Assembly (NCBI GenBank): GCA_030620045.1
Contig: JAUXAD010000002.1
Span: 1 to 55,201 of the forward strand
DNA: 55,201 nt
Reading direction: 5' to 3'
DNA from: an archaeon
Lineage (GTDB): Archaea; Nanobdellota; Nanobdellia; Pacearchaeales; GW2011-AR1
Within the stretch, counting starts at the first letter, position 1. Each line of letters begins with the position of its first letter. This document shows positions 609-54,450 of the stretch, piece by piece. The position numbers were made by a program, and so were the translations under genes. The notes under the pieces were generated by a model that searched no databases, had not been told where the DNA came from, and saw only the letters and a list, made by a program, of their open reading frames with translations.

Positions 609-869
609 ATGATTTCAAAGAGTAAACTTCTTGAGCTTATGAAAAGATTTGAAGAGATTCCTTTAGACAAAAAAAGGTTGACAGTAATGAGAAATCATGA
701 TCATCTTGTTATTGTTAAAGATTCTGTTAAAGACTATCTTTTTGGAAAAATAGAATACAGAGGGAAAGGCCGTATTTATGGTCTAGAAGTTGAAGGTGAA
801 CAAATGAAACTGTCTTATTCTAATTTAGAAAGAATTTTTGCAAATAACAAAAAAATTAATACTACTTAA
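609..869 (+). CDS. hypothetical protein (86 aa)
   Basis: ATG-initiated ORF in a tight same-strand series between valS and aRF1. No recognisable motif. Confidence 0.4.
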   Translation: MISKSKLLELMKRFEEIPLDKKRLTVMRNHDHLVIVKDSVKDYLFGKIEYRGKGRIYGLEVEGEQMKLSYSNLERIFANNKKINTT

Positions 870-899: not shown

Positions 900-1985
900 A
901 TGGTTTTAACTAAAGAAGAACTTGAAGAGATTGTTGAAGAACTTGAAACTTATAAGGGGAAGCATACAGAACTTATTACAGTTTATATTCCTGCAGGGTA
1001 TGATGTTAATTCTGTTCAGAGGCAGCTTGAAGGAGAAAAAGCTACTGCAAAGAATATTAAATCAACTACGACGAGAAAGAATGTTGTTGATGCTCTTGAT
1101 AAAATTGTGAGGCATTTGAAGACTCTTAAAAAAACACCTGAAAATGGTCTTGCTTTATTTTGTGGGAATATTTCTCAAGTTGAAGGGCAATTGGATTTAG
1201 GGTTCTGGGATATTGAACCTACTATGCCTTTGAAAATTAGGTTGTATAGATGTGATAAAGAATTTGTTTTAGATCCCTTAAAAGCAATGCTTGAAGTTTC
1301 TGAAGTTTTTGGTCTGCTTGTAATGGACAGAAAGGAAGCAACTATTGGATTATTGGAAGGGAAAAGAATAGAAACTTTACAAAAAATGACTTCAGGTATT
1401 CCAAGTAAGATTCGGGCTGGTGGTCAATCGAGCCAAAGGTTTCATAGGATTACAGAGGGTTTGACAAAAGAATTCTATAAAAGAATTGCAGAACAAATGA
1501 AAAAGATTTTTTTTGCCATGCCTAAGCTTAAAGGAATTTTGATTGGAGGTCCTATGCCTACGAAAGATGAATTTCTTGATAGCGAATATATGGTGACAAA
1601 GTTAAGGGATAAGGTTATCGGTAAAGTAGATATTGGTGGTTCTGATGAATCTGGATTAAAAGAACTTGTTATAAAGTCACAAGATATTTTAGCAGACCAG
1701 GAGATAATTCATGAAAAAAAGATTTTAGAAAAGTTTTTTAAAACTTTAGGCGAGAGGCCGGATATGGCAACACTGCGTGAGGAGGACACTAAACAAGCTT
1801 TGAAATATGGTGCTGTTGATTTACTTATTTTGTCTAAAGACACAGATAAAAAGATTTCAAAGGAATTTAAAAAATTGGCAGAAGATATGAGCTCAAGTAT
1901 TGAAATTGTTTCTACAGAGACAGAAGAAGGATTGCAATTTAAAAATTTAGGTGGGATTGGTTCTATATTGAGGTTTAGGGTTTGA
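900..1985 (+). CDS. prf1: peptide chain release factor aRF1
   Basis: NIKS motif (TAKNIKSTTTRKN) and GGQ motif (RAGGQSSQRF) at the expected spacing. At 361 aa it is somewhat short for aRF1. Confidence 0.93.
   Translation: MVLTKEELEEIVEELETYKGKHTELITVYIPAGYDVNSVQRQLEGEKATAKNIKSTTTRKNVVDALDKIVRHLKTLKKTPENGLALFCGNISQVEGQLDLGFWDIEPTMPLKIRLYRCDKEFVLDPLKAMLEVSEVFGLLVMDRKEATIGLLEGKRIETLQKMTSGIPSKIRAGGQSSQRFHRITEGLTKEFYKRIAEQMKKIFFAMPKLKGILIGGPMPTKDEFLDSEYMVTKLRDKVIGKVDIGGSDESGLKELVIKSQDILADQEIIHEKKILEKFFKTLGERPDMATLREEDTKQALKYGAVDLLILSKDTDKKISKEFKKLAEDMSSSIEIVSTETEEGLQFKNLGGIGSILRFRV
1938..1985 (+). repeat. copy 1 of a 48-nt direct repeat (last 15 codons plus stop of aRF1, FKNLGGIGSILRFRV*)
   Basis: 41/48 nt identical to 3078-3125 by hand count. 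Confidence 0.85.
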
Positions 1986-2034
1986 TAAATTAATTAGAAA
2001 AATTGATAATGAAAATTATTTTCACAGAACATAT

Positions 2035-2145
2035 GCGATTAACAGAAGTTTGCGAAGCAAATTTGGGTCGAGGCTCTGCAAGAGCCGAGCCTGTTAATCG
2101 CGGTTATGTGGGGAGCCTGCAAGGCGACCGACCGAAGGGACAGTT
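2035..2145 (+). ncRNA. candidate structured RNA of unknown family (GC-rich island)
   Basis: A perfect 11-bp helix (2035-2045 GCGATTAACAG with 2091-2101 CTGTTAATCGC) encloses two hairpins, at 2046-2064 and 2072-2086. A further hairpin lies at 2115-2125 and a T-run follows at 2144-2147. GC is clearly above the local background. Confidence 0.3.
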
Positions 2146-2162
2146 TTCAAAACCACTTTCTT

Positions 2163-2597
2163 TTATAAATTCATTAAGAAAATAAAATAAAATTCCCCCA
2201 TAATTCCGTATAGATACCAAATTGGCGCATGTTCTAAACAAATTAAGCCATAAAGATTTGATTTGTATTTTTTGCCAAATATTTTTATGGAATAATCTTC
2301 ATAATTCCAAGGAGAGACTCCAACAGCCTTTTTTATTAAAAACCCCGAAACAAATTCAAGCAAATAAAAGGCAAACATATAGATTATTCCTTTAATAAAA
2401 ATATTTGTTCCTTGAAAATGCGCCAATACAAATATATAGATGAATGGCACGATAGCATAAATGAGAAACATCCACAAGTATGTTTCTCCAGTTAATCTAG
2501 GATTTTTTGTTTTAATTGAATTTAAAATTGATGCCCAAAAAACCTCCATAGTTATTCCAATTAAAACAAATCCGATAATCGTTTGAATGAGTGCCAT
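2163..2597 (-). CDS. small polytopic membrane protein (resembles the PF06541 CmpB-like family)
   Basis: 144 aa with about 4 hydrophobic helices. The SPWNYEDYS...LICLEHAPIW pattern recalls the PWDYS motif of that family. The family call is tentative. Confidence 0.5.
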   Translation of the reverse strand: MALIQTIIGFVLIGITMEVFWASILNSIKTKNPRLTGETYLWMFLIYAIVPFIYIFVLAHFQGTNIFIKGIIYMFAFYLLEFVSGFLIKKAVGVSPWNYEDYSIKIFGKKYKSNLYGLICLEHAPIWYLYGIMGEFYFIFLMNL

Positions 2598-2660
2598 GTA
2601 ATAATTTTATTTAACTTAAAATATAAATGTTTTGTAAGTGGTTTTGGAAATTGCACATAA

Positions 2661-2849
2661 CATGCAAAAGACAGAATAAAAAAAAGGAAAATAACAGAGG
2701 ATGAAATTATTAATATAATAAAATATTCCAATAAAACTTATAAAAGAGAAGGAAAATATTATGTTCAAGGAAATATTGGAAGAGCTAACATAGAAGTTGT
2801 CTATGAAAAAGATAAATATATAAATGTTATAACTGTTTATTACATATGA
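2661..2849 (+). pseudogene. DUF4258-like toxin remnant (no start codon, in-frame TAA just upstream)
   Basis: The frame reads HAKDRIKKKRKITEDEIINII...NIEVVYEKDKYINVITVYYI*. This matches the DUF4258 HA..R...R.I pattern. TAA at 2658-2660 directly precedes the HA. The stop overlaps the ATG of the next gene (ATGA). Confidence 0.5.
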
Positions 2850-3058
2850 AAATTACCTTTGATAAAGAAGCAGATGCAGTTTACATAGAGTTTAGTAATG
2901 GAGAATTTGCTTCAAATAAAAAAATAGATGATTTTACTATTATAGATTTGGATGAAAAAGGAAATATTTTAGGGATAGAACTATTAAATGTAAGCAAAAG
3001 AATCTCAAAAGATTTTCTTTCTGATATAAGTGTAAAAAATCTTGTTTCCGCTGAATGA
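2846..3058 (+). CDS. DUF2283-family small protein (usual partner of DUF4258)
   Basis: MKITFDKEADAVYIEF...GNILGIELLNVSKR is the typical DUF2283 sequence pattern. Confidence 0.7.
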   Translation: MKITFDKEADAVYIEFSNGEFASNKKIDDFTIIDLDEKGNILGIELLNVSKRISKDFLSDISVKNLVSAE

Positions 3059-3077
3059 TTTTTTGATAAATTGAGTG

Positions 3078-3125
3078 TTTAAAAATTTAAGTGGGATTGG
3101 GAGTATTTTGAGGTTTAAGGTTTAA
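3078..3125 (+). repeat. copy 2 of the aRF1 3'-end repeat (reads FKNLSGIGSILRFKV*)
   Basis: It lies 1140 nt downstream of copy 1. The 7 nt differences give 2 conservative changes (G->S, R->K). The rest are synonymous, including TCT->AGT, both Ser. Confidence 0.85.
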
Positions 3126-3143
3126 AAGATTTAGTTCTTTGTT

Positions 3144-5012
3144 TTATTGCAAATTTTCAATATAACTTAATGAATCTCCAGATGTTACTGAAGGTAAGAC
3201 TTCACTGACAAAATGATTTGAACTTTGTTTGAAAGTCTGATTCTGTTTTAAAGCCCAGTAAGGTTTATACCAACCCTTTATCTTAAACAAATAATTATCA
3301 TATGAATTTCCTTTAAGGTGAATTATCTTTTCTTCTCCGCTTTCAATACTAAAAGGAGAGAAGTCAGTTTTTATTTCCTTTATATTATATTCAACATCTT
3401 CTGAGAAATCAATTGTAACACTATTAATGACATACCATCCCCCCACATAATCAAGAGTGATATTTAATTCATCTTCCTTTACTGGTACATAAATTAAGAA
3501 GTCTTCCCCTTGCTTGTTAATTACATCTGATTTTGCCCTTATACTCCCTACATCCTCTCCATTTACTAATATGTTCATTCCAAATTGATTAACAGCATCC
3601 CTCCAAATCTTATTTATGATAGGTAAAGAGAATTTATTGTCATAAAATTCAAACCAGTTTGCTCCCAAGTTATTCCATAAATATATTATTACTTGATTTT
3701 GTAAACCAGTATGTCTTGCATTAATAATTATTTTTGCATTATCTCCTTGTTTCCTGAAATAATATGAATCGCCTTCAATTTTATCTGGCTGTCTAGGGTT
3801 AATTACAGAGTGCAAGATGCCAGTATCTTCTTCTGGAAGAAACAAATTATCTGAGTCAATTCCATATATTTTAAAATCAGTAATGTAGGATGTTTCGTCT
3901 TTAAATGGTTCTGTAATTTTAACATAATCTAAATTACCCTTATATGTTTGATAACTGTAATCTTCTAAAGATTTCATAAAACTATGCGCATATGCATCAT
4001 GAACATAAGTGCATTCTTCCCCTGAACAAGCGTATATGTAAGGGCAACCTACTGGATTTGTATCTGGATCTCCAGGATAAAGACACGCTCCATTTATGCA
4101 TGCCCTTCCACCAGTGCATTCTTCTTCTTCTTCTGTACTAGTAGATGTGCTATAACATTCTCCTCCAGAGCATCCTTGATTCCAACATGTAAGGGTATAT
4201 GTTCTCCATGTTCTCCACCCCAACTCCCCATACTTAGACTCACACCCTTCATTAGACACCTGACAATAATCCCCTCCACAGTCTCTTTTTATTTCTTCTC
4301 TGTTCCCGCAACTATCATACCAATATTCATCATTATTAGAACAGCTAACTGAAGCATGGGCACAGCATGTTCCCCCCTTGCAAGTGTTTCCTCCAGGGCA
4401 ACTTCCACAATTTACTGTTCCTTCACAATCATCATCCCATGTTCCACATATATAACCACCTAAACTTGCACAAGTTTTGGGTACACAACAAAACTCATTA
4501 TTATCAATGGCATCTTGAAAACTCCTTCCTGCAGAAATTTCAATTTCATCTGCATAATGATGCACTTTACTTTTATCAACAGGACCTTTATATAAATCTT
4601 TCAAGGGAGATGCAGGACAAAGTTTATTTGGTTTTCCCATCGCATCAAACAAATACATTTCACCGTCTTTTACAGAAACCCAAATTTCATTTGCACTATG
4701 ACTTGGGTTTGAAATTTCTGAGATTGGAGGGTCAGAATAATTATAACTCCCATCAAACCTAAATTCATTCATAATTATTACTTGTTGCAATGTTTTTGTA
4801 TCTCCATCAACCCTAAGAAAAATATTTTCTCCATAATGATGTGAAGGAGTTTGTCCACTTATAGCAAAACCACCTATACCAATTTTTTCCCCGACTATTA
4901 AATCAACACTTGCTATAATTAGAATCAAAACACTTATCGCTGTCAGCACATATACTAATCTGTTAGAAACTTTTTTTCTTTTTCCTCTCTTTTTCATCTT
5001 ATTCCTAAGCAC
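3144..5012 (-). CDS. membrane-anchored or secreted Cys-rich surface protein
   Basis: 622 aa. Basic N-terminus plus one TM helix (LVYVLTAISVLILIIA). Central block very rich in Cys and Gly (CGSCPGGNTCKGGTCC...). Confidence 0.6.
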   Translation of the reverse strand: MLRNKMKKRGKRKKVSNRLVYVLTAISVLILIIASVDLIVGEKIGIGGFAISGQTPSHHYGENIFLRVDGDTKTLQQVIIMNEFRFDGSYNYSDPPISEISNPSHSANEIWVSVKDGEMYLFDAMGKPNKLCPASPLKDLYKGPVDKSKVHHYADEIEISAGRSFQDAIDNNEFCCVPKTCASLGGYICGTWDDDCEGTVNCGSCPGGNTCKGGTCCAHASVSCSNNDEYWYDSCGNREEIKRDCGGDYCQVSNEGCESKYGELGWRTWRTYTLTCWNQGCSGGECYSTSTSTEEEEECTGGRACINGACLYPGDPDTNPVGCPYIYACSGEECTYVHDAYAHSFMKSLEDYSYQTYKGNLDYVKITEPFKDETSYITDFKIYGIDSDNLFLPEEDTGILHSVINPRQPDKIEGDSYYFRKQGDNAKIIINARHTGLQNQVIIYLWNNLGANWFEFYDNKFSLPIINKIWRDAVNQFGMNILVNGEDVGSIRAKSDVINKQGEDFLIYVPVKEDELNITLDYVGGWYVINSVTIDFSEDVEYNIKEIKTDFSPFSIESGEEKIIHLKGNSYDNYLFKIKGWYKPYWALKQNQTFKQSSNHFVSEVLPSVTSGDSLSYIENLQ

Positions 5013-5047: not shown

Positions 5048-5599
5048 ATGGACATTTCATCTAAAACAATAAATGAAATTGACGAAGCAAAACAAATCGA
5101 AGATTTAAAAAAAATTGAGGCGGTTTTTTTTGTTTCTGGAAGATTTTTATCAATGCAGGAATTAATTTCCTTGACTGATTTGAATCCTATTATAATTCAA
5201 GAATTAATAGAGAATCTTAAAAAGAAATATGACAGGAGTGATTCAGCGATTGAGATTGTAGAAAAGAATGGCTTATGGAAAATGGATGTAAAGCAAGAGT
5301 ATTCTGGAATAATAAATAAATTAGCTACTGGAAACTCAGAATTTTCCAAAGCAGAGCAGGAGACACTTGCAATCATAGCATATAAACAACCAATGAAACA
5401 GTCAGTTGTAGTTAAAATCCGTGGGAACAAAGCTTATGAGCACATAAAAAAGTTCTTTGATTTAGGATTAATTAGAAAGAAAAAAATGGGGCATACTAAT
5501 GAATTAAGTTTAAGCAATGAATTCTATGATTATTTTAATTTAACTGATTCTGATACTGGATTACAAGAATCTTTAAAAGAGAAATCAACTGAAGAGTGA
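5048..5599 (+). CDS. scpB: segregation and condensation protein B
   Basis: IEAVFFVSGRFLS...ELI, KAEQETLAIIAYKQPMKQSVVVKIRG and the FYDYFNL end match the ScpB double winged-helix pattern. Confidence 0.85.
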   Translation: MDISSKTINEIDEAKQIEDLKKIEAVFFVSGRFLSMQELISLTDLNPIIIQELIENLKKKYDRSDSAIEIVEKNGLWKMDVKQEYSGIINKLATGNSEFSKAEQETLAIIAYKQPMKQSVVVKIRGNKAYEHIKKFFDLGLIRKKKMGHTNELSLSNEFYDYFNLTDSDTGLQESLKEKSTEE

Positions 5600-20961: not shown

Positions 20962-21067
20962 TGGCCCCAGAGGGATTTGAACCCACGACACCCAGATATC
21001 TCCATCACCTCGAAATAACCTTTCAGTTTAAGAGTCTGGTGCTCTGACCAAGCTGAGCTATGGAGCC
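20962..21067 (-). tRNA. tRNA-Lys(CUU) with an intron of about 31 nt after position 37
   Basis: Hand fold: acceptor GGCTCCA/TGGGGCC, D arm GCTC-AGCTTGGTCA-GAGC, anticodon stem CCAGA/TCTGG, loop CTCTTA[intron about 20998-21028]A. T arm GTGGG-TTCAAAT-CCCTC has one U-U mismatch. Discriminator A. Confidence 0.85.
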
Positions 21068-33368: not shown

Positions 33369-33410
33369 TTATAACCTCTTCTCAACCTTAATGGCAGTTG
33401 GGGCTTCTCC
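33369..33410 (-). repeat. displaced second copy of the herA-like gene 3' end (reads GEAPTAIKVEKRL*)
   Basis: 34/42 nt identical to 33492-33533. All 8 differences are synonymous or stop-to-stop. Confidence 0.9.
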
Positions 33411-33412
33411 AA

Positions 33413-33491: not shown

Positions 33492-34805
33492 TCAAAGCCG
33501 TTTTTCAACCTTAATAGCAGTTGGGGCTTCCCCACCATGCCAAGTAAATCTTGGGCGTATTCTCATTGGATAAATTCTTTCTGAATTATCATCAAGAATT
33601 ATTGCAGAACCTTTTAAGCTTGGCAAATCATCCATATATTTTTTTATACTCTCAAGAAGATAACTTTGCATAATATGATTAAGGGCTTCTAAATCTGGCT
33701 GGCTAGTAACCCTATGTGAAATAACAATATCAGATTGAGTCATGACATCTGTATGAATTTTCCCTGGCTGTTGTGTCGCCAAAACCACAGAAATCCCAGG
33801 TTGTCGTCCCTCTCTTAATAATTGAATTAATGCGTCTGTTGCAGCTGTTTTTTTGTTTAAGGGTAAGAATTCATGTGCTTCATCTATGAATATCCAAACT
33901 AAAGGGGTTTCTTTTTTTTCTGAAGTTGATGAAAAATCGAGACCTTTTGAGACAGATTCTATTTCTTCTTTTTTTCTTGCGTCCATTCTCTGGTTGAAAA
34001 TCTTTCTTGAAATTAAACTGATGACTAAAGCTCTTACATTAAAAGCTCCGATTGAGCTATAAACACTTAAGTCTAAAACAGAAGTTGTTCCAGCAGAAAT
34101 TAAATCTTTTACTTGTGTTGCTTGCTTTGATTTTTTTGCAAATACCCCCCATGTATCTGCCGCTTCAAACAATCCTATGGCAGCATTTTTAGTTTCTCCC
34201 AAGGTTTTTTCATCCTTCTCTAAATTTGAAATTATTTCTTTAATATTAAATTCTTTTTGCTCTTCTTTTAATCTGGTTATAGTTCTTTCAATTAAAACTG
34301 ATATAGGGTTTGTTATATCTAAACCAAAAGTTATAATCCAATCTTCAGAATTTAGTTCTGTAACATCTAAAGCGAATTTTTCGTCAATAGGAATGCCTTT
34401 TTCTAAGTAATCATCATAATGTCCAAATGGAACAAAAACTTTTGTTGGAAGATTCTTTGATTTCAAATCCCAATCTTGTAATAATTTTTTATCCTTTTCA
34501 TTTGGAAATTTCATAGTCCAATAAATTCCCATTGTATCAAAAATTAAAGATGCAATATTTTGGCTTATTTCTGGGGGGAGGTTGGAAAGTTCTTCTGTTA
34601 TGACTCCTAATGTATATGACTTCCCGCTTCCTCTCTTTCCCGCCACGAGGACAACATGACTTCTTGCTACATCCATGAAAATTTTATTGCTTAGAGAAGT
34701 ATACTGACCCATTTTTACAAAACCTTTTCCAATAAAAATTAATCCTTTTTTACCAAAAACTTCTTTGTCACTTGCGCCTCTTCCAACTATAATATCATAT
34801 GCCAT
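33492..34805 (-). CDS. HerA-like / DUF87 P-loop ATPase
   Basis: Walker A GKRGSGKSYT, Walker B WIFIDEAHEF, downstream ATQQPG motif. 437 aa. Confidence 0.75.
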   Translation of the reverse strand: MAYDIIVGRGASDKEVFGKKGLIFIGKGFVKMGQYTSLSNKIFMDVARSHVVLVAGKRGSGKSYTLGVITEELSNLPPEISQNIASLIFDTMGIYWTMKFPNEKDKKLLQDWDLKSKNLPTKVFVPFGHYDDYLEKGIPIDEKFALDVTELNSEDWIITFGLDITNPISVLIERTITRLKEEQKEFNIKEIISNLEKDEKTLGETKNAAIGLFEAADTWGVFAKKSKQATQVKDLISAGTTSVLDLSVYSSIGAFNVRALVISLISRKIFNQRMDARKKEEIESVSKGLDFSSTSEKKETPLVWIFIDEAHEFLPLNKKTAATDALIQLLREGRQPGISVVLATQQPGKIHTDVMTQSDIVISHRVTSQPDLEALNHIMQSYLLESIKKYMDDLPSLKGSAIILDDNSERIYPMRIRPRFTWHGGEAPTAIKVEKRL

Positions 34806-46418: not shown

Positions 46419-46525
46419 TCTACCTCTTTTATTATTTTAATTTGATGGGATAATAATTTATAAAAGTATTGTAACATCCCTGCCTAACTTTCAATCACAA
46501 CATCTAATATTTTCAATATCATAAA

Positions 46526-46620
46526 CGCCCCTGCCGAACTCCCGACCTTGCACGAGTAATTAATATTAGAAGTTTCTCTCTACCACAAAGTCACTCGGAT
46601 TCGAATCTCGGGTTCCCCGA
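46526..46620 (-). pseudogene. tRNA-Glu 3' fragment (T-arm copy plus 3' end) interrupted by the GC-rich module
   Basis: CGCCCCTGCCGA at 46526-46537 is identical to 46654-46665. A T-arm-like TTCGAATCTCGGGT lies at 46600-46613. The module sits between them. Confidence 0.55.
46539..46596 (-). repeat. GC-rich dispersed module, Glu-locus copy
   Basis: Ends with AGGTCGGGAG as in the Lys copy. Shares TTAATTAC with the herA copy, plus the GAG-GA-TT start and GAAACT. Confidence 0.55.
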
Positions 46621-46653
46621 GTTTAATCGAGAGGGGATTTACAATCCCCTAAA

Positions 46654-46803
46654 CGCCCCTGCCGAGATTCGAACTCGGGTCACCACCGTTCTCCAACAAG
46701 ACAGGTTGCATTAAGATGCATAGACCTTGTCTCTCATCGAGATTTAATCACCTCTCTGTCTAATGTGAGAGGGTGGCATCCTTGGCCTCTAGACTACAGG
46801 GGC
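46654..46803 (-). tRNA. tRNA-Glu(CUC) with an intron of about 77 nt after position 37
   Basis: Hand fold: acceptor GCCCCTG/CAGGGGC, D arm GTCT-AGAGGCCAA-GGAT, anticodon stem CCACC/GGTGG, loop CTCTCA[intron]C. T arm CCGAG-TTCGAAT-CTCGG, discriminator G. Confidence 0.8.
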
Positions 46804-50320: not shown

Positions 50321-50657
50321 GTTTAACTTGTTTCATTTTTTCTGCTGGCATTCTTCTTTCATATTCTTCTAATGTATTTTGCAAAGCTTGACTTGCGTCA
50401 ACTTTGGTTTGATTTGCAATTTTTAATAATAAGAATAAAGTATCTCCTATGTAATCAGAGACTTTTTCTTTGTTATTATTAATAACTTCTTTTTGCTTTT
50501 CATCATTAACCCATTTAATTAAGTCCCATAGTTCTCCACCCTCTTCAGTTATATTTAATAGTAAATCCTTTATGTTCCAATCATTTCTCCATCCTCTCGC
50601 TATATCAAATCCTTTTATCTTATCTTGTGCTTCTTTGATTTCCATTATTTCATCCAA
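50283..50657 (-). CDS. MazG-like nucleotide pyrophosphohydrolase
   Basis: All-alpha. EEGGELWD ... IGDTLFLLLKIAN matches the E..E...E..D metal-binding helices of the MazG family. Confidence 0.6.
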   Translation of the reverse strand: MDEIMEIKEAQDKIKGFDIARGWRNDWNIKDLLLNITEEGGELWDLIKWVNDEKQKEVINNNKEKVSDYIGDTLFLLLKIANQTKVDASQALQNTLEEYERRMPAEKMKQVKHANTKAGGIDNK

Positions 50658-52153
50658 AATTTTATTTTTCTTAATTGAGTTATATTGTTTTTGTATAATT
50701 CACGAAGGTCTTTTATTCCATAATAATCCGTTATTATTCTATCAGGACCCATCCCCCATGCAAGAATAGGTATATGTTTTCCTAAAAGAGGTATTGTTAC
50801 TTCTGGTCTGAACATTCCTGCTCCCCCTAATTCTAACCAAACTTTTTTTTCAGGATGCCAAACATCTACCTCGACACTAGGTTCTGTATAAGAGAAGAAT
50901 CCAGGCCTGAATCTTATTTTTTCAAAACCCATTTTTTTGAAGAATTGTTTTAAATATCCAAGTAAATGCCTAAAATCAGCATTCTCATCTACAACAATTC
51001 CTTCTGATTGATGAAACTCAAAGCCATGACTCCAGTCAACTGTCTCATTTCTAAAATTTTTCCCAATAGCAAAAAATTTCGCAGGTAAGTTTTCTTCTTT
51101 TAATTTGGCCAATGTTTGAGAAGACAAGCAAGTTGTATGAGTTCGCATGACAAGTCTTTTGGCTTCTTCATCATCCCATTCATATTGCCAACCTTTGCTT
51201 CCTGTTGTTCCTTTTTCATGAGCATCTTTTACAGCTTTTACAATTTTTTTGTCAGGAAGAGTTGCTTTTTTATCAAGGAAGAATGTGTCCTGCATTTCTC
51301 TTACAGGATGGTCTTGCGCAGTAAACAAAGCATCAAAATTCCAGAAAGAACTTACAATCATATTTCCAGTCATTTCTTTAAAACCCATATCTGTCCATAT
51401 TTTTCTTGCATAATCCATTGATTGATTTACAAAATGTCTTTTCCCTCCATTAATTGCAGGTACTGAAGAGACAATATCATATCTTCTGAATTTTTTGCTC
51501 TTCCATTGTGATTCTTTTTTTAAGATTTCTGGGGTTATTTGCTCAATTGAGTCTTTTTCTTTTATTCTGTAATTAATTGCTTTTTTCCCTAATTCAGTAA
51601 CTTCAATATTGATTATTTTTTCTTCTTTTGTTCTAACTATATCTTTTCTGTTTTGGAGAGATTTTAATGCGTGAAGTTGTTCGGGGGATAAGGAGTCATG
51701 CTCTATTGGAAGAACTTCAATGAAGGATTCTTCAAGGATTTTTTTTGAAATTTCTTCTTTGTTTGCATTTAAAATTATTCTTTGGTTTTTTAATTCAATC
51801 ATTGCTTTTTTCTTTAATGCTCCAATAGCTGCTTTAAATTCATCGTTTGATAATCGGCTCTCTTTTTGTGCTTCTTGTAATTTAAGAATTCTTTTTTCAT
51901 TTAGAAGATGCAAGAGCCTTCTTTCTGGCAAACCCTTTTTTTTGTATAATGCTCCATTAACTCCTATTTCTATTATTTTCTTTTTTTTAAAAGAAAGATT
52001 CACTATTTTTTTGTTTTGCAAATATTCTAAAGCTCTTAATACAGAAGTCTGGTCTAAGTTAGACTTTTTACAAATTTCGCTTATTTTTTTTTCTTCAAGA
52101 TGTGGAAGAATCTTTCTTTCATTAGGACTTAGAGATTCTATTATCTTTTCCAT
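50645..52153 (-). CDS. pheS: phenylalanyl-tRNA synthetase alpha subunit
   Basis: N-terminal winged-helix repeats, class II motifs (HPVREMQDTFF, FRNE, GAGMFRPEV...GMGPDR). Confidence 0.92.
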   Translation of the reverse strand: MEKIIESLSPNERKILPHLEEKKISEICKKSNLDQTSVLRALEYLQNKKIVNLSFKKKKIIEIGVNGALYKKKGLPERRLLHLLNEKRILKLQEAQKESRLSNDEFKAAIGALKKKAMIELKNQRIILNANKEEISKKILEESFIEVLPIEHDSLSPEQLHALKSLQNRKDIVRTKEEKIINIEVTELGKKAINYRIKEKDSIEQITPEILKKESQWKSKKFRRYDIVSSVPAINGGKRHFVNQSMDYARKIWTDMGFKEMTGNMIVSSFWNFDALFTAQDHPVREMQDTFFLDKKATLPDKKIVKAVKDAHEKGTTGSKGWQYEWDDEEAKRLVMRTHTTCLSSQTLAKLKEENLPAKFFAIGKNFRNETVDWSHGFEFHQSEGIVVDENADFRHLLGYLKQFFKKMGFEKIRFRPGFFSYTEPSVEVDVWHPEKKVWLELGGAGMFRPEVTIPLLGKHIPILAWGMGPDRIITDYYGIKDLRELYKNNITQLRKIKFWMK

Positions 52154-52220
52154 AACAATTTAGAGAAGGATTAATTTATAATTGTTTCTTCTCGGCTATT
52201 GGAAAGCTGTTATGGATTGT

Positions 52221-52685
52221 TTAAAATTTGTCACTGTCCAATAACCTCGTCATAGACGTCGGCATGCCTAAAACCAAGCCAAGTGCTTTTAAATCATAAA
52301 TATTTCTTTTTTGTTTGAAAGAAATAAATTTCATTTTTAGTTTGTTTTTGTTACAAAGTTTTATGTTTTGGGAAATACGGGCAAGGATTTTTGCTTTGTT
52401 TTTACCCTTTGAATTAATTATTTCATCTAAATTTATCCCGATTGTTATATTTTTCTTTTTCGCTATTTTTGCAAGAACATGATTGAATCCAGAATTTCTT
52501 TGTTTTGGTTTATCTTTTCTATTTGCAAGATTTATCAAAAGAATTTGAATTGGAAGTTTTTCAAGAACTTTTCTATTTAATTCATCATTGTTACTTGAGA
52601 AGATAATTGTTTTATCAGAATTTGTTTTTATCTTTTCACGTATCTTATTGAAATTACTTTCTTGGAGGAGGATTGTGTTTTTCAT
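52221..52685 (-). CDS. rnp3: RNase P protein component 3 (Rpp30/p30-like), short form
   Basis: NSGFNHVLAKIAKKKNITIGINLDEI and NIYDLKALGLVLGM resemble the Rpp30 TIM-barrel C-terminal half. At 154 aa it is short, so the call is tentative. Confidence 0.5.
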   Translation of the reverse strand: MKNTILLQESNFNKIREKIKTNSDKTIIFSSNNDELNRKVLEKLPIQILLINLANRKDKPKQRNSGFNHVLAKIAKKKNITIGINLDEIINSKGKNKAKILARISQNIKLCNKNKLKMKFISFKQKRNIYDLKALGLVLGMPTSMTRLLDSDKF

Positions 52686-52745
52686 ATTATATTATAGATA
52701 TTTAGTTATATAAATATTTATAAATTCGAAATTTTTGAGGGAGTT

Positions 52746-53045
52746 ATGGAAAAATACTTTTATCCTTATGTCGATTTTCCTAAAGGGGATTGTGACTGTT
52801 ATGATGTATGTGTTCTTTCGAATGAATCGATAAGAGATTCTAGGATTCTTTTAAAGTTTCAAGAGGGTATTTTAGTATGTGAAGAACCTTTATCACGTGA
52901 TGCCTATCTTGATAGACATGAGATGGAGGGATTTGCAAGGGAAAAGCGAGGGGAATTTATTCCTTTTGGGAGAACTTTGAATTTAGAAGGGGATGTTCGA
53001 GGAATTTCTTTAAAAAAAGAGCAACTTGTTCCGAACGAGGATTAA
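52746..53045 (+). CDS. hypothetical protein (99 aa)
   Basis: ORF only. Confidence 0.4.
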   Translation: MEKYFYPYVDFPKGDCDCYDVCVLSNESIRDSRILLKFQEGILVCEEPLSRDAYLDRHEMEGFAREKRGEFIPFGRTLNLEGDVRGISLKKEQLVPNED

Positions 53046-53187
53046 TCCTAATTGTTGTTCCTTTAAATTTTTCATGAAGTTAGTAAGAGAAAAGGGTTTT
53101 TATTTTTGGTGGTTTGATGTTTGGGTTAAGGGAAGTTTTGTTTAGGTCTTTAGAAAGTCTTAAAAAGTTATTGCAGATGTTTTTTGT

Positions 53188-53739
53188 ATGGTTTTAACAA
53201 AAAATGTGTATGAATTTCCTTTTGAAAAGAAGTATTTTACTAAGGCTGTTTCTGACCCTAGAGCTCATTTTGGTCCTGCAGAACATGCAATAGATTTTCC
53301 TTTGAAAGAGAATACACCTATTCTTGCTCCTTTGGATGGGGTTGTTGTGGATGTGAAAATGGATTCAAAAGAAGGAGGTCCTGATCCAAAATATAATGAT
53401 TTGAAATATATTAATTATATAACTTTAGAACATTCTAAGGGTGAATTTTCTCAGTATGCTCATTTGAAATATAATAATGCTTATGTTGTTGTTGGAGATA
53501 CGGTAAGGACAGGACAAAAAATTGCTTTGAGCGGAAATACAGGACCTTCTTCAGGGCCACATTTACATTTTCAAGTTTTTAAACTAAATAATTTGGGTAC
53601 AAAAGTTGAAGCTTTAGAGATAAACTTTAAAGAATCCCTTGAAGTTGATAGGAGTGTAGGACCTCCTGATAAAGGAAATGAAAAGCTTTTAGAGGAAATA
53701 GAAAGAACAAGAAAGGAATTTGAATCTAGTTCTAAATAA
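53188..53739 (+). CDS. M23-family (LytM-like) metallopeptidase, no signal peptide
   Basis: EHAIDF (H..D), APLDGVV, SGNTG, and the HxH motif GPHLHFQV. Confidence 0.7.
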   Translation: MVLTKNVYEFPFEKKYFTKAVSDPRAHFGPAEHAIDFPLKENTPILAPLDGVVVDVKMDSKEGGPDPKYNDLKYINYITLEHSKGEFSQYAHLKYNNAYVVVGDTVRTGQKIALSGNTGPSSGPHLHFQVFKLNNLGTKVEALEINFKESLEVDRSVGPPDKGNEKLLEEIERTRKEFESSSK

Positions 53740-53760
53740 AACCTAAACAAAATTTTTATC

Positions 53761-54450
53761 TTATCTAGAGATAATTGTTCCTTTAAACTTTTTATTATTT
53801 AGAAGTTTGTCAAGTTGTGCTGGATTTTTTCCGATTATATATGTTTTAATTTTATTTTTAAGAATTATCGCGGCTGCTTTTTGGTCAAGAACAAAATGCT
53901 GTCCTGGTTTAAATTTCATTTTATTTGATAATTTTAAGAAATTCTTCCATGAAATTTCAGATATGAATTTTGCGTTCTTGAATTTTTTTGGATTTTTATT
54001 ATATAATCCTGAAACATTTGTTAAATTTATAAAAATTGTTTTAAACTTTTTTGCAATACTAGCAGCTGTTGAATCAGATGTTTGTTTTGGTTTGTATTCT
54101 AATGCTCCACAAAAAACCACATCTTGTTTTCTTGTGTATTTTTTCAGAGATTTCATTGTGTGGGGAATTCCCTCTTCAAGATTAACGCCAAAGATATAAT
54201 TCATGAATCTTGCATTCATTCTTGTTGCTGAAATTCCTGAAAAACTCTGAAATTTTTCATTAATTCCCAAATCCTTTAAAGCATTGATATATTTTCTTGC
54301 GACACTTCCCCCACCACAAACAATTATGAAAAGATATTTTCTTGTGTTTTTTTGAATTACTTTTTTGAATTGTTTGAGAAAGGTTGTATCTACATTGTCA
54401 GGAATTATCAGACTTCCTCCAAGACTTAGAACTATTAGCCTCTTTTTCAT
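53761..54450 (-). CDS. pyrH: uridylate kinase (archaeal type)
   Basis: Amino-acid-kinase fold: LSLGGSLI start, VCGGGSVAR. 229 aa. Confidence 0.85.
   Translation of the reverse strand: MKKRLIVLSLGGSLIIPDNVDTTFLKQFKKVIQKNTRKYLFIIVCGGGSVARKYINALKDLGINEKFQSFSGISATRMNARFMNYIFGVNLEEGIPHTMKSLKKYTRKQDVVFCGALEYKPKQTSDSTAASIAKKFKTIFINLTNVSGLYNKNPKKFKNAKFISEISWKNFLKLSNKMKFKPGQHFVLDQKAAAIILKNKIKTYIIGKNPAQLDKLLNNKKFKGTIISR

What the first reader, a model, noticed from the sequence alone, without database searches (positions are those of the whole stretch)
1938..3125. The aRF1 3' end is duplicated 1140 nt downstream with protein-level conservation, bracketing a 1.09-kb insert
Copy 1 (1938-1985) encodes FKNLGGIGSILRFRV-stop and is the real end of aRF1. 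Copy 2 (3078-3125) encodes FKNLSGIGSILRFKV-stop.

The copies are 41/48 nt identical. The differences are GGT/AGT (G->S), GGT/GGG, TCT/AGT (Ser to Ser through two substitutions), ATA/ATT, AGG/AAG (R->K) and TGA/TAA. The Ser TCT/AGT switch and the retained stop argue that copy 2 was once a working aRF1 terminus.

The intervening 1986-3077 carries accessory-looking cargo:
- a GC-rich structured element (2035-2145);
- a small membrane protein on the opposite strand;
- a DUF4258 remnant and its DUF2283 partner.

The architecture matches the herA and tRNA loci, but here with cargo. This suggests an integrated element that targets and regenerates the 3' end of an essential gene, with no recombinase left.
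Basis: partly seen in the sequence, partly recalled or inferred. Interest (0 to 1): 0.75.

Follow-up and report, generated by a model that had tools for sequence, protein, structure and literature searches.

The report
Toxin–antitoxin insertion that rebuilt the aRF1 end
A small toxin–antitoxin gene pair was inserted into the last 16 codons of an essential archaeal translation-termination gene; it brought a spare copy of the gene's end, so the gene survived, and a second mobile gene cassette later landed inside the toxin gene.

Summary
The repeat is real: 41/48 nt (45/54), against at most 30/48 in shuffles. The organism is a Pacearchaeota (DPANN) archaeon.

Copy 2 (3078-3131) is the native aRF1 end. 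It matches the working end of the closest relative at 46/48. Copy 1 matches a more distant relative at 47/48, so the gene has a foreign-type tip.

The cargo is absent from all 164 related aRF1 loci and results from two nested events:
- **Outer event:** a DUF4258/DUF2283 toxin–antitoxin operon of about 0.5 kb.
- **Inner event:** a 631-nt integron-type gene cassette (2030-2660), made of a membrane-protein gene plus an attC-like site. The cassette sits at a G|TT site in toxin codon 8, and removing it restores an intact operon (91% gap-free to an uninterrupted copy).

The same operon family is bracketed by duplicated target sequence at two other loci. Four other relatives carry aRF1-end duplications with different boundaries and cargo. 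I found no recombinase.

This fits "insertion with long target duplication", described for bacterial restriction–modification genes, better than an aRF1-specific integrative element. It is a new member of a known kind and moderately interesting.

The parts
900..1985 (+). aRF1 (peptide chain release factor), 361 aa. The body is closest to L001; the last ~48-60 nt are of the L003 type.
   Evidence: Pfam eRF1_1/2/3. Homologs named aRF-1 of Pacearchaeota. The last 8 informative sites (1925-1984) are all L003-like, against 82 L001-like and 38 L003-like over the whole gene.
1938..1991 (+). Repeat copy 1: the aRF1 end now in use (FKNLGGIGSILRFRV-stop plus 6 nt).
   Evidence: 47/48 identical to the aRF1 end of L003/L085, including TGATAAA after the gene; only 41/48 to L001.
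1992..2008 (.). Left flank of the inserted segment, between the aRF1 stop region and the toxin start codon.
   Evidence: Not homologous to the flank of other copies of the operon.
2009..2029 (+). Toxin (DUF4258) codons 1-7, MKIIFTE, cut off from the rest of the gene by the cassette.
   Evidence: Joined to 2661 onward it gives an intact 70-aa ORF that aligns gap-free with the intact operon of L179.
2030..2660 (-). Integron-type gene cassette (631 nt), inserted at G|TT on its own strand. On that strand it starts TTATGTGCAATTT and ends GCATATG.
   Evidence: Empty site ACAGAA|CATGC in L179. Homology to the same cassette in L176, L177 and L178 begins exactly at TT and ends at G.
It consists of outer AAC/GTT boxes, an 11-bp inner stem and two variable hairpins.
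   Evidence: The covariance model places it in one family with 6 same-strand copies in L178. 8 of 11 inner pairs show compensatory changes and AAC/GTT is invariant. DNA fold z -5.6. No Rfam family.
2163..2597 (-). Cassette ORF: a 144-aa membrane protein (PF06541).
   Evidence: Pfam. Homologs at 65-89% identity sit in unrelated contexts.
2661..2849 (+). Toxin (DUF4258) codons 8-70 plus stop. The apparent TAA at 2658-2660 belongs to the cassette end, not to a point mutation.
   Evidence: Pfam DUF4258; alignment with L179.
2846..3058 (+). Antitoxin (DUF2283), 70 aa, intact, overlapping the toxin stop by ATGA.
   Evidence: Pfam. 670 homologous clusters, many named Pacearchaeota, at 79-94% identity.
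3059..3077 (.). Right flank of the inserted segment (TTTTTTGATAAATTGAGTG).
   Evidence: A T-run after the antitoxin stop is also seen in L179 and L190.
3078..3131 (+). Repeat copy 2: the displaced native aRF1 end (FKNLSGIGSILRFKV-stop plus 6 nt), now non-coding.
   Evidence: 46/48 identical to the working aRF1 end of L001/L002, the closest relatives. Preceded by an in-frame stop.
3144..5012 (-). Neighbouring 622-aa Cys-rich protein, itself accessory. Context only.
   Evidence: No Pfam hit. Homolog at 81% identity in L001 only, with weak partial matches (27-50% over 40-235 aa) in five other loci.
5048..5599 (+). ScpB, the conserved downstream neighbour of aRF1. Context only.
   Evidence: aRF1 is followed by ScpB on the same strand in 130 loci, with gaps of 5 to 4038 nt; L003 is tight (gene calls 3790/3795).

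Best explanation
A segment of about 0.5 kb was inserted 48 nt before the aRF1 stop codon. It consisted of an aRF1 3' end followed by a DUF4258/DUF2283 toxin–antitoxin operon.

Because the segment begins with a complete gene end, aRF1 stays intact. It now finishes in copy 1, and the native end (copy 2) is stranded downstream as non-coding DNA. This belongs to the class called 'insertion with long target duplication': an addiction module flanked by 30-150-nt direct repeats of the target that span a stop or start codon, with no mobility gene.

The two copies are two natural alleles. Copy 1 is the allele of a more distant relative and copy 2 that of the closest relative. I therefore infer that the segment came from a related strain that already carried the operon behind aRF1. 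It probably arrived as a small circle, released by recombination between that strain's flanking repeats, and entered by a single exchange in the 12 identical bases at the 5' edge of the repeat (TTTAAAAATTTA).

Later a 631-nt integron-type gene cassette (membrane-protein gene plus attC-like site) was inserted at a G|TT site in codon 8 of the toxin. That split and inactivated the toxin.

Shown: the insertion, its nesting, both empty sites, the allelic identity of the two copies, and the recurrence elsewhere. Inferred: the circular intermediate, the single exchange, and the absence of a dedicated recombinase.
For: - **Repeat is real:** it is far beyond chance.
- **Two alleles:** copy 2 is 46/48 to the L001/L002 end and copy 1 is 47/48 to the L003 end. 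The aRF1 body is 91.8% nt identical to L001 against 87.7% to L003, and the last 8 informative sites are all L003-type.
- **Cargo is accessory:** cargo genes are absent from 164 related loci. In L003, aRF1 is followed directly by ScpB.
- **Nested cassette:** deleting 2030-2660 gives 372/409 gap-free identity to the intact operon in L179.
- **Same operon, other targets:** in L180-L189 the operon is flanked by a 37-nt duplicate of the 3' end and stop of a Laminin_G_3 gene (33/37). In L190-L199 it is flanked by 44-nt repeats at 93-98%, with a third copy of the repeat behind a HEPN gene stop.
- **Other aRF1-end duplications:** L156, L059 and L053 have them with other boundaries and cargo. herA and tRNA-Glu are duplicated in this window.
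- **Local repeats are common:** 75 local direct-repeat hits in 2.0 Mb of related DNA (about 18 independent pairs by my count), against 0 in shuffled sequence.
- **No recombinase:** no integrase or transposase domain in 37 window ORFs or in 20 integrase-sized ORFs beside aRF1 in relatives.
- **Cassette family:** the attC-like site groups with a 6-copy array in L178, its pairs covary, and the cassette boundaries fall exactly at G|TT.
- **Literature:** PMC2853133 describes the class, including 46-bp repeats that overlap gene 3' ends. PMC9668308 reports integrons in Nanoarchaeota, mostly without an integrase on the contig, with toxin–antitoxin cassettes common.
Against: - In the published cases both repeat copies are near-identical to the target. 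Here they differ at 7 of 48 positions, so an extra step (import from, or exchange with, another strain) has to be assumed.
- No strain with an L003-type aRF1 followed by the operon was found.
- Repeats of 37-54 nt are also the normal size of archaeal integrase attachment sites, and toxin–antitoxin genes are typical last survivors of decayed elements.
- One further copy of the operon (L179) has no flanking repeat.
- Only four genomic contexts of the operon could be read.
- The aRF1 3' half is mosaic relative to L001 and L003 anyway. A run of 8 L003-type sites is therefore less decisive than it looks (about 0.004 at the local frequency).
- Eight window ORFs have no Pfam hit and were not examined further.
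Confidence: 0.55

Rival explanations
1. Decayed integrative element. A plasmid- or virus-like element encoding a tyrosine or serine integrase carried an attP that included the aRF1 3' end. It integrated site-specifically and was then trimmed by deletion until only the toxin–antitoxin operon, whose loss is penalised, remained between attL and attR.
For: The direct repeats are att-sized, and the exchange lies at the 5' edge of the repeat, with homology running to the gene end as in tRNA-targeting elements. A tRNA-Glu 3' end is duplicated in the same window, the classic integrase signature. L190 shows three copies of one repeat separating two inserts, like tandem integration. These genomes are small and probably lose DNA quickly.
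Against: No integrase was found in the window or beside aRF1 in the relatives sampled. No aRF1 end was found on viral contigs. The same operon lies between three different repeats at three loci, each time with only 12-92 nt of margin. aRF1 duplications in other relatives begin at different positions.
Confidence: 0.22
2. In-situ duplication followed by allele shuffling. The operon was inserted in an ancestor by a process that copies 30-150 nt of target on both sides, such as fill-in of a widely staggered break or template switching during repair. The two copies were identical at first. The present difference arose by later exchange with other strains, or relatives that lost the insert by repeat-to-repeat recombination kept one or the other copy.
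For: Other repeat pairs of this kind are 96-100% identical (L128, L045, L041, L063, L131, L190), as expected for fresh duplication. Repeat alleles differ between strains of one population in L190-L199. The TCT/AGT serine switch is easier in a copy free of selection.
Against: Copy 2 has barely drifted from a working allele (46/48), and copy 1 equals another working allele (47/48). That is simpler if two existing alleles were joined. A conversion tract confined to the 48-nt repeat would be needed. No relative with the insert was found.
Confidence: 0.15
3. One-sided homologous recombination of linear DNA from a relative (homology-facilitated illegitimate recombination). aRF1 served as the anchor, and the far end of the fragment joined by microhomology inside the recipient's own aRF1 end, which duplicated it.
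For: This explains why the repeats always run to the point just past the stop codon where gene order between strains ceases to match, and why their 5' boundaries vary. It also explains the foreign-type copy 1.
Against: The left exchange (between 1919 and 1950) coincides with the start of copy 2, which is not expected if the anchor exchange can fall anywhere in 1 kb of homology. It does not explain how the operon reaches unrelated targets.
Confidence: 0.05
4. Artefact: chance similarity, or a chimeric metagenome assembly that joined two strains.
For: The contig comes from a metagenome, and both alleles circulate in related populations.
Against: 41/48 against at most 30/48 in shuffles. The longest exact stretch shared by the copies is 12 nt, too short to mislead an assembler. 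Comparable structures occur in independent assemblies.
Confidence: 0.02

Closest known systems
Insertion with long target duplication of restriction–modification genes (Nobusato et al. 2000, Gene 259:99; Furuta et al. 2010, PMC2853133)
   Same: An addiction-type gene pair lies between direct repeats longer than 30 bp that correspond to a single-copy target in empty-site genomes. The repeats span a stop or start codon, so the target gene stays whole. There is no mobility gene, and repeat length varies between events (for the literature; here).
   Different: The cargo is a toxin–antitoxin operon, not restriction–modification genes. The host is a DPANN archaeon, and no archaeal case survived their systematic flanking-repeat screen. 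The two repeat copies are different natural alleles rather than near-identical. The target is an essential translation factor.
Prophage-like elements e14 and phage 21 in the icd gene of E. coli (own knowledge, not tested here)
   Same: Integration inside the 3' end of a protein-coding gene. The element supplies a diverged but functional replacement end, and the original end is left as a pseudo-end downstream.
   Different: Those elements encode their own integrase and always use icd. Here there is no integrase, and the same cargo sits at other targets.
Archaeal integrative elements with att sites in tRNA 3' ends (SSV-type and pNOB8-type integrases; own knowledge)
   Same: Direct repeats of about 40-65 nt run from the exchange point to the 3' end of the target gene. 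Serial integration gives several repeat copies.
   Different: The defining integrase and a constant attP are missing. The target is a protein gene.
Integron gene cassettes and attC sites in Archaea (Ghaly et al. 2022, PMC9668308)
   Same: For the inner 631-nt insert: one ORF followed by an imperfect palindrome with outer AAC/GTT boxes, boundaries at G|TT, the same site family in a same-strand array with toxin–antitoxin cassettes (L178), and no integrase on the contig.
   Different: It is a single cassette outside any array, inserted in a coding sequence (a secondary site). The spacers between the boxes are 1 and 4 nt rather than the canonical pattern. No dedicated attC detector was run.

Membership tests
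Insertion with long target duplication | Direct repeats longer than 30 bp flank the insert | tested here: met
   54 nt at 83%; 41/48 over the coding part.
Insertion with long target duplication | The repeat corresponds to a single-copy target in related genomes that lack the insert | tested here: met
   Of 161 related loci tested by each locus's own last 48 nt, all but L156 and L059 have one aRF1 end; the self-BLAST scan adds a partial duplicate in L053. L003 has aRF1 directly followed by ScpB.
Insertion with long target duplication | No transposase or integrase in or next to the insert | tested here: met
   No such Pfam domain in the insert or in 37 other window ORFs. Eight ORFs have no hit at all.
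Insertion with long target duplication | Both repeat copies are near-identical to the target | tested here: inconclusive
   Copy 2 is 46/48 to the closest relative. Copy 1 is only 41/48 to it but 47/48 to another relative.
Insertion with long target duplication | The same cargo occurs at other loci with other, variable-length repeats | tested here: met
   L180: 37 nt from a Laminin_G_3 gene end. L190: 44-65 nt. L179: none found.
Integrase-mediated integrative element | An integrase gene in the element or a related copy | tested here: not met
   The Pfam overview of gap ORFs showed only the top 25 families, so this is not exhaustive.
Integrase-mediated integrative element | A constant attachment site and exchange point for the element family | tested here: not met
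   There are three different repeats for the same operon. aRF1 duplications start about 48, 60-68, 90 and 141 nt before the gene end.
Integrase-mediated integrative element | Direct repeats that regenerate the target gene's 3' end | tested here: met
Integron gene cassette / attC site | Imperfect inverted repeat with outer boxes RYYYAAC and GTTRRRY | tested here: met
   CACATAAC and, in the circular form, GTTATGTG are perfect complements and each fits the consensus at 6/7. AAC/GTT is invariant in 9 of 9 copies.
Integron gene cassette / attC site | Inner paired boxes kept by compensatory change, with a variable centre | tested here: met
   8 of 11 inner pairs changed on both sides. 90% of cells are paired against 33-47% when slid. 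The alignment was fitted to the model, which favours this result.
Integron gene cassette / attC site | Cassette boundaries at G|TT, shown by an empty site | tested here: met
   L179 empty site. Homology among four cassette copies starts at TT and ends at G.
Integron gene cassette / attC site | Same-strand arrays of sites separated by one or two ORFs | tested here: met
   L178 has six hits on one strand, 700-1000 nt apart, with ParE-type pairs between them. The window itself has a single site.
Integron gene cassette / attC site | Integron integrase (IntI) and attI nearby | tested here: not met
   None in the window. The ORF at the L178 array edge looks like an ArsR-type regulator by eye.
Integron gene cassette / attC site | Recombination by IntI on the folded bottom strand | not testable with these tools
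   The only support is that the strand complementary to the cassette ORF folds better as DNA (-22.2 against -16.3 kcal/mol).
Type II toxin–antitoxin pair DUF4258/DUF2283 | Two small adjacent ORFs with the two Pfam domains | tested here: met
   Intact 69-71-aa plus 68-70-aa pairs occur in L179, L180 and L190.
Type II toxin–antitoxin pair DUF4258/DUF2283 | An intact toxin gene | tested here: not met
   The toxin is split after codon 7 by the cassette.
Type II toxin–antitoxin pair DUF4258/DUF2283 | Toxicity, and neutralisation by the partner | not testable with these tools
   No paper in the library names both domains.

The most novel reading that the evidence does not exclude
Pacearchaeota (DPANN archaea) may gain single genes routinely by a recombinase-independent route. 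In it, a small DNA carrying a short piece of target enters by one exchange, leaves 30-150-nt direct repeats that keep the neighbouring gene ends or starts intact, can be released again through those repeats, and moves on to other strains. The aRF1 locus, with two different natural alleles as its repeats, would then be the first sequence evidence for the 'release and re-invasion' step that was only hypothesised for restriction–modification genes.
Probability: 0.25. Interest if true: 0.7.

Novelty: new member of a known kind. Interest (0 to 1): 0.5.

Why it matters
- **Gene gain in a tiny genome:** the locus shows how an essential translation gene can tolerate foreign DNA inside its coding end, and how a very small archaeal genome gains accessory genes without any visible mobility enzyme.
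- **Extension of a known class:** insertion with long target duplication was described in bacteria for restriction–modification genes and has had no mechanism since 2000. This case extends it to toxin–antitoxin genes and to Archaea.
- **A clue to mechanism:** because the two repeat copies are different natural alleles, the locus constrains where the exchange took place.
- **A clean cassette example:** the nested cassette is an empty-site-verified case of an archaeal integron-type cassette landing outside an array and disarming a toxin.
- **Annotation:** the DUF4258 'pseudogene' is a split gene, and the 'structured RNA' is a DNA recombination site.

Tried and rejected
- **Rfam on the GC-rich element:** scans at gathering and E-value thresholds found no family for it. 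I first treated it as a possible non-coding RNA. I dropped that once it proved to be the 3' part of a cassette found in other contexts and in arrays.
- **10-nt repeat as target-site duplication:** my first reading of CACAGAACAT/CACATAACAT as a transposon-type duplication was replaced by the G|TT cassette boundary, because the L179 empty site shows no duplication.
- **Viral contigs:** scans for aRF1 and for a degenerate aRF1-end pattern found nothing.
- **Integrase search:** window ORFs and ORFs beside aRF1 in relatives gave none.
- **Simple tandem duplication:** rejected for the window, herA and L059, because the sequence after copy 2 does not repeat the spacer.
- **Shared mini-element in the short spacers:** the herA, tRNA-Glu and L059 spacers show no convincing similarity or structure.
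- **The 11-mer TTTGATAAATT (1981-1991 and 3062-3072):** it may be a remnant of a third tail copy. A T-rich run also follows the antitoxin in L179 and L190, so this is left open.
- **MKQITFS after the attC-like site in L176:** it resembles the toxin start in the window, but no toxin remainder is present there. Left unexplained.
- **Other copies in the window:** none of the cargo and none of the attC-like site.
Full report
**The observation**

The window comes from a low-GC Pacearchaeota (DPANN) archaeon, according to the names given to the aRF1 and DUF2283 homologs. The ORF 900-1985 is aRF1, with Pfam eRF1 domains 1-3.

Its last 48 nt plus 6 nt of flank (1938-1991) recur at 3078-3131. The match is 45/54, or 41/48 over the coding part. 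Copy 2 is preceded by an in-frame stop and lies in no ORF of 30 aa or more on either strand.

Chance is excluded:
- The best match of copy 1 in 100 shuffles of the 8 kb downstream is 30/48.
- In related loci, apart from two that carry their own duplication, the best own-tail match downstream is 29/48.

An assembly artefact is unlikely, because the copies share no exact stretch longer than 12 nt.

**Which copy is native**

I retrieved 164 related aRF1 loci. The closest relatives are L001/L002, with 95% protein identity. Next is L003/L085 at 90%.

| | identity to L001/L002 aRF1 end | identity to L003 aRF1 end |
|---|---|---|
| Copy 1 (1938-1985) | 41/48 | 47/48 |
| Copy 2 (3078-3125) | 46/48 | 42/48 |

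- Copy 2 shares AGT, GGG-AGT and the TAA stop with the working end of L001/L002.
- Copy 1's match to L003 continues into TGATAAA after the gene.
- The gene body is 91.8% nt identical to L001 and 87.7% to L003.
- Of 128 sites that tell L001 and L003 apart, 82 follow L001 and 38 follow L003, but the last eight (1925-1984) all follow L003.

So copy 2 is the displaced native end, and the end now in use is of a foreign allele type. The switch lies between 1919 and 1950, at the 5' edge of the repeat. One caveat applies: the 3' half of the gene is mosaic in any case.

**The cargo is accessory and made of two nested events**

None of the three cargo genes occurs in the 164 related loci or elsewhere in the window. 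aRF1 is followed by ScpB on the same strand in 130 loci. In L003 ScpB follows directly, with only 4 nt between the called genes.

Codons 1-7 of a DUF4258 toxin (MKIIFTE, 2009-2029) lie 631 nt upstream of the 'remnant' (2661-2849). Deleting 2030-2660 gives a sequence that aligns without gaps, 372/409, to an intact DUF4258/DUF2283 operon in L179. The uninterrupted target there reads ACAGAA|CATGC. The original cargo was therefore only the toxin–antitoxin operon. The GC-rich element and the membrane gene came later, as one unit.

**The inner unit is an integron-type gene cassette**

- Homologs of the membrane protein at 85-89% identity occur in unrelated contexts (L176, L177, L178), followed by the same element with compensatory stem changes.
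- Homology among the copies starts exactly at TT and ends at G. These are the classic cassette boundaries G|TT.
- A covariance model built from four copies finds five more copies on one strand of L178. With the seed copy at 4419, that makes six sites 700-1000 nt apart, each after one or two small ORFs that include two ParE-type pairs.
- The outer AAC/GTT pairs are invariant in nine copies, and eight of eleven inner pairs changed on both sides.
- The strand complementary to the ORF folds best as DNA, with z -5.6.
- No integron integrase is present on these contigs.

All of this matches the archaeal integrons reported by Ghaly et al. 2022. They include Nanoarchaeota, are mostly arrays without an integrase on the contig, and have many toxin–antitoxin cassettes. 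The window has a single such site, so this cassette landed at a secondary site and split the toxin gene.

**Is this an aRF1-targeting element?**

The evidence points away from that reading.

1. The same operon family is bracketed by other duplicated targets:
   - In L180-L189 the repeat is a 37-nt copy of the 3' end and stop of a Laminin_G_3 gene, 33/37.
   - In L190-L199 the repeats are 44 nt at 93-98%. A third copy sits behind a HEPN gene stop, and another single gene lies between the first two copies.
   - In L179 I found no repeat.
2. aRF1-end duplications exist in L156, L059 and L053. Their repeats begin about 141, 60-68 and 90 nt before the end of the gene, against 48 nt here. Their inserts are a 98-aa ORF, 52-62 nt and 8 nt.
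3. In this window herA (33379-33411 and 33502-33534) and an intron-containing tRNA-Glu (46654-46803) also have duplicated 3' ends, around inserts of roughly 75-120 nt.
4. A self-comparison of all 200 sequences (2.0 Mb) gave 75 local direct-repeat hits of 28-400 nt. That is about 18 independent pairs by my count, about ten of which hold the stop codon of a flanking ORF. Shuffled sequence gave none.
5. I found no integrase or transposase domain in 37 window ORFs or in 20 integrase-sized ORFs beside aRF1 in relatives. Viral contigs carry no aRF1 end.

**Comparison with what is known**

The pattern matches 'insertion with long target duplication', described for restriction–modification genes in bacteria (Nobusato 2000; Furuta 2010). 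Its features are direct repeats longer than 30 bp that are single-copy in empty-site genomes, that often span a stop or start codon so the target gene stays whole, and that come with no mobility gene. The mechanism is unknown, and no archaeal case survived their systematic flanking-repeat screen.

The differences here are the toxin–antitoxin cargo, the archaeal host and the essential target. In addition, the two repeat copies are different natural alleles. The library holds no paper that names both DUF4258 and DUF2283. The seven papers that mention both toxin–antitoxin systems and long target duplication use the latter phrase only once each, and I did not open them.

**Mechanism**

Each copy equals a working allele of a different lineage, and the left switch coincides with the start of copy 2. 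The simplest reading is therefore that a small circular DNA [aRF1 end + operon] entered by a single exchange in the 12 identical bases at the 5' edge of the repeat. The circle would have been released from a related strain by recombination between its own flanking repeats. This is inference.

An integrase-mediated integration followed by deletion of everything except the operon is the main rival. The remaining alternatives are an in-situ duplication with later allele exchange, and one-sided homologous recombination of linear DNA.

**Verdict**

The locus is a new member of a known kind and is of moderate interest.

Noticed in passing
window 33379-33411 and 33502-33534 (herA is 33492-34805, minus strand): The herA 3' end, including its stop (GEAPTAIKVEKRL-stop), is duplicated 123 nt downstream around a 76-nt GC-rich spacer with no ORF. 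This is the same architecture as at aRF1 but without cargo.
   Followed up: partly
window 46654-46803 (minus strand); repeats 46509-46537 and 46637-46665: A tRNA-Glu(CTC) with a 77-nt intron was missed by the default tRNA scan and by the Rfam gathering run. Its 3' acceptor end plus flank is duplicated 128 nt downstream (86%) around a GC-rich spacer that contains a T-arm-like piece.
   Followed up: partly
window 20962-21067 (minus strand): A tRNA-Lys(CTT) with a 31-nt intron was found by Rfam, and by ARAGORN only when introns were allowed.
   Followed up: partly
window 609-869: An 86-aa ORF with no Pfam hit lies between the aminoacyl-tRNA synthetase gene and aRF1. It is present in only two of 164 related loci, and in L003 the two flanking genes overlap. 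It is probably another small accessory insertion.
   Followed up: no
L178 265-4522: Six same-strand attC-like sites separate cassettes that encode two ParE-type toxin–antitoxin pairs, an ASCH protein and others. The membrane-protein cassette at the end is frameshifted and its site is partly deleted. This is an integrase-less cassette array.
   Followed up: partly
L176 1-2089: The same membrane-protein cassette (89% protein identity) lies in a visibly more GC-rich contig (GC not measured), next to a 324-aa ORF that I read as an amidohydrolase-type gene (not scanned). This suggests cassette sharing across distant hosts. The DNA just beyond its attC-like site encodes MKQITFS, which resembles the toxin start in the window; this is unexplained.
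   Followed up: partly
L190-L199: 728-792, 2154-2197 and 2749-2813: Three copies of one 44-65-nt repeat separate an AAA_14/DUF4143 ATPase gene and the toxin–antitoxin operon. Repeat alleles differ between samples of the same population.
   Followed up: partly
L036 2174-2888; L164 12146-12511; L141 10135-10519; L131 9711-10216; L117 5353-5883; L063 2562-3367: Single small ORFs (91-194 aa) are bracketed by 29-49-nt direct repeats that often hold a neighbouring stop or start codon. Only the L036 ORF was scanned against Pfam, and it gave no hit.
   Followed up: partly
Proteins P0022, P0023, P0093, P0100, P0107, P0110, P0115: Some Pacearchaeota aRF1 homologs are 495-541 aa long and match the query in two pieces, and five of them carry an intein domain (PF14890). 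aRF1 is therefore also an intein host in this group.
   Followed up: no
window 50645-54450: The PheRS – RNase P p30 – AA_kinase neighbourhood is syntenic with the L180 locus that holds the toxin–antitoxin operon. Here it carries a Peptidase_M23 gene instead of Laminin_G_3 plus the operon.
   Followed up: no
window 1981-1991 and 3062-3072: The 11-mer TTTGATAAATT occurs at the end of copy 1 and 6 nt before copy 2. It could be a junction microhomology, part of the operon's T-rich terminator, or a trace of a third tail copy.
   Followed up: partly
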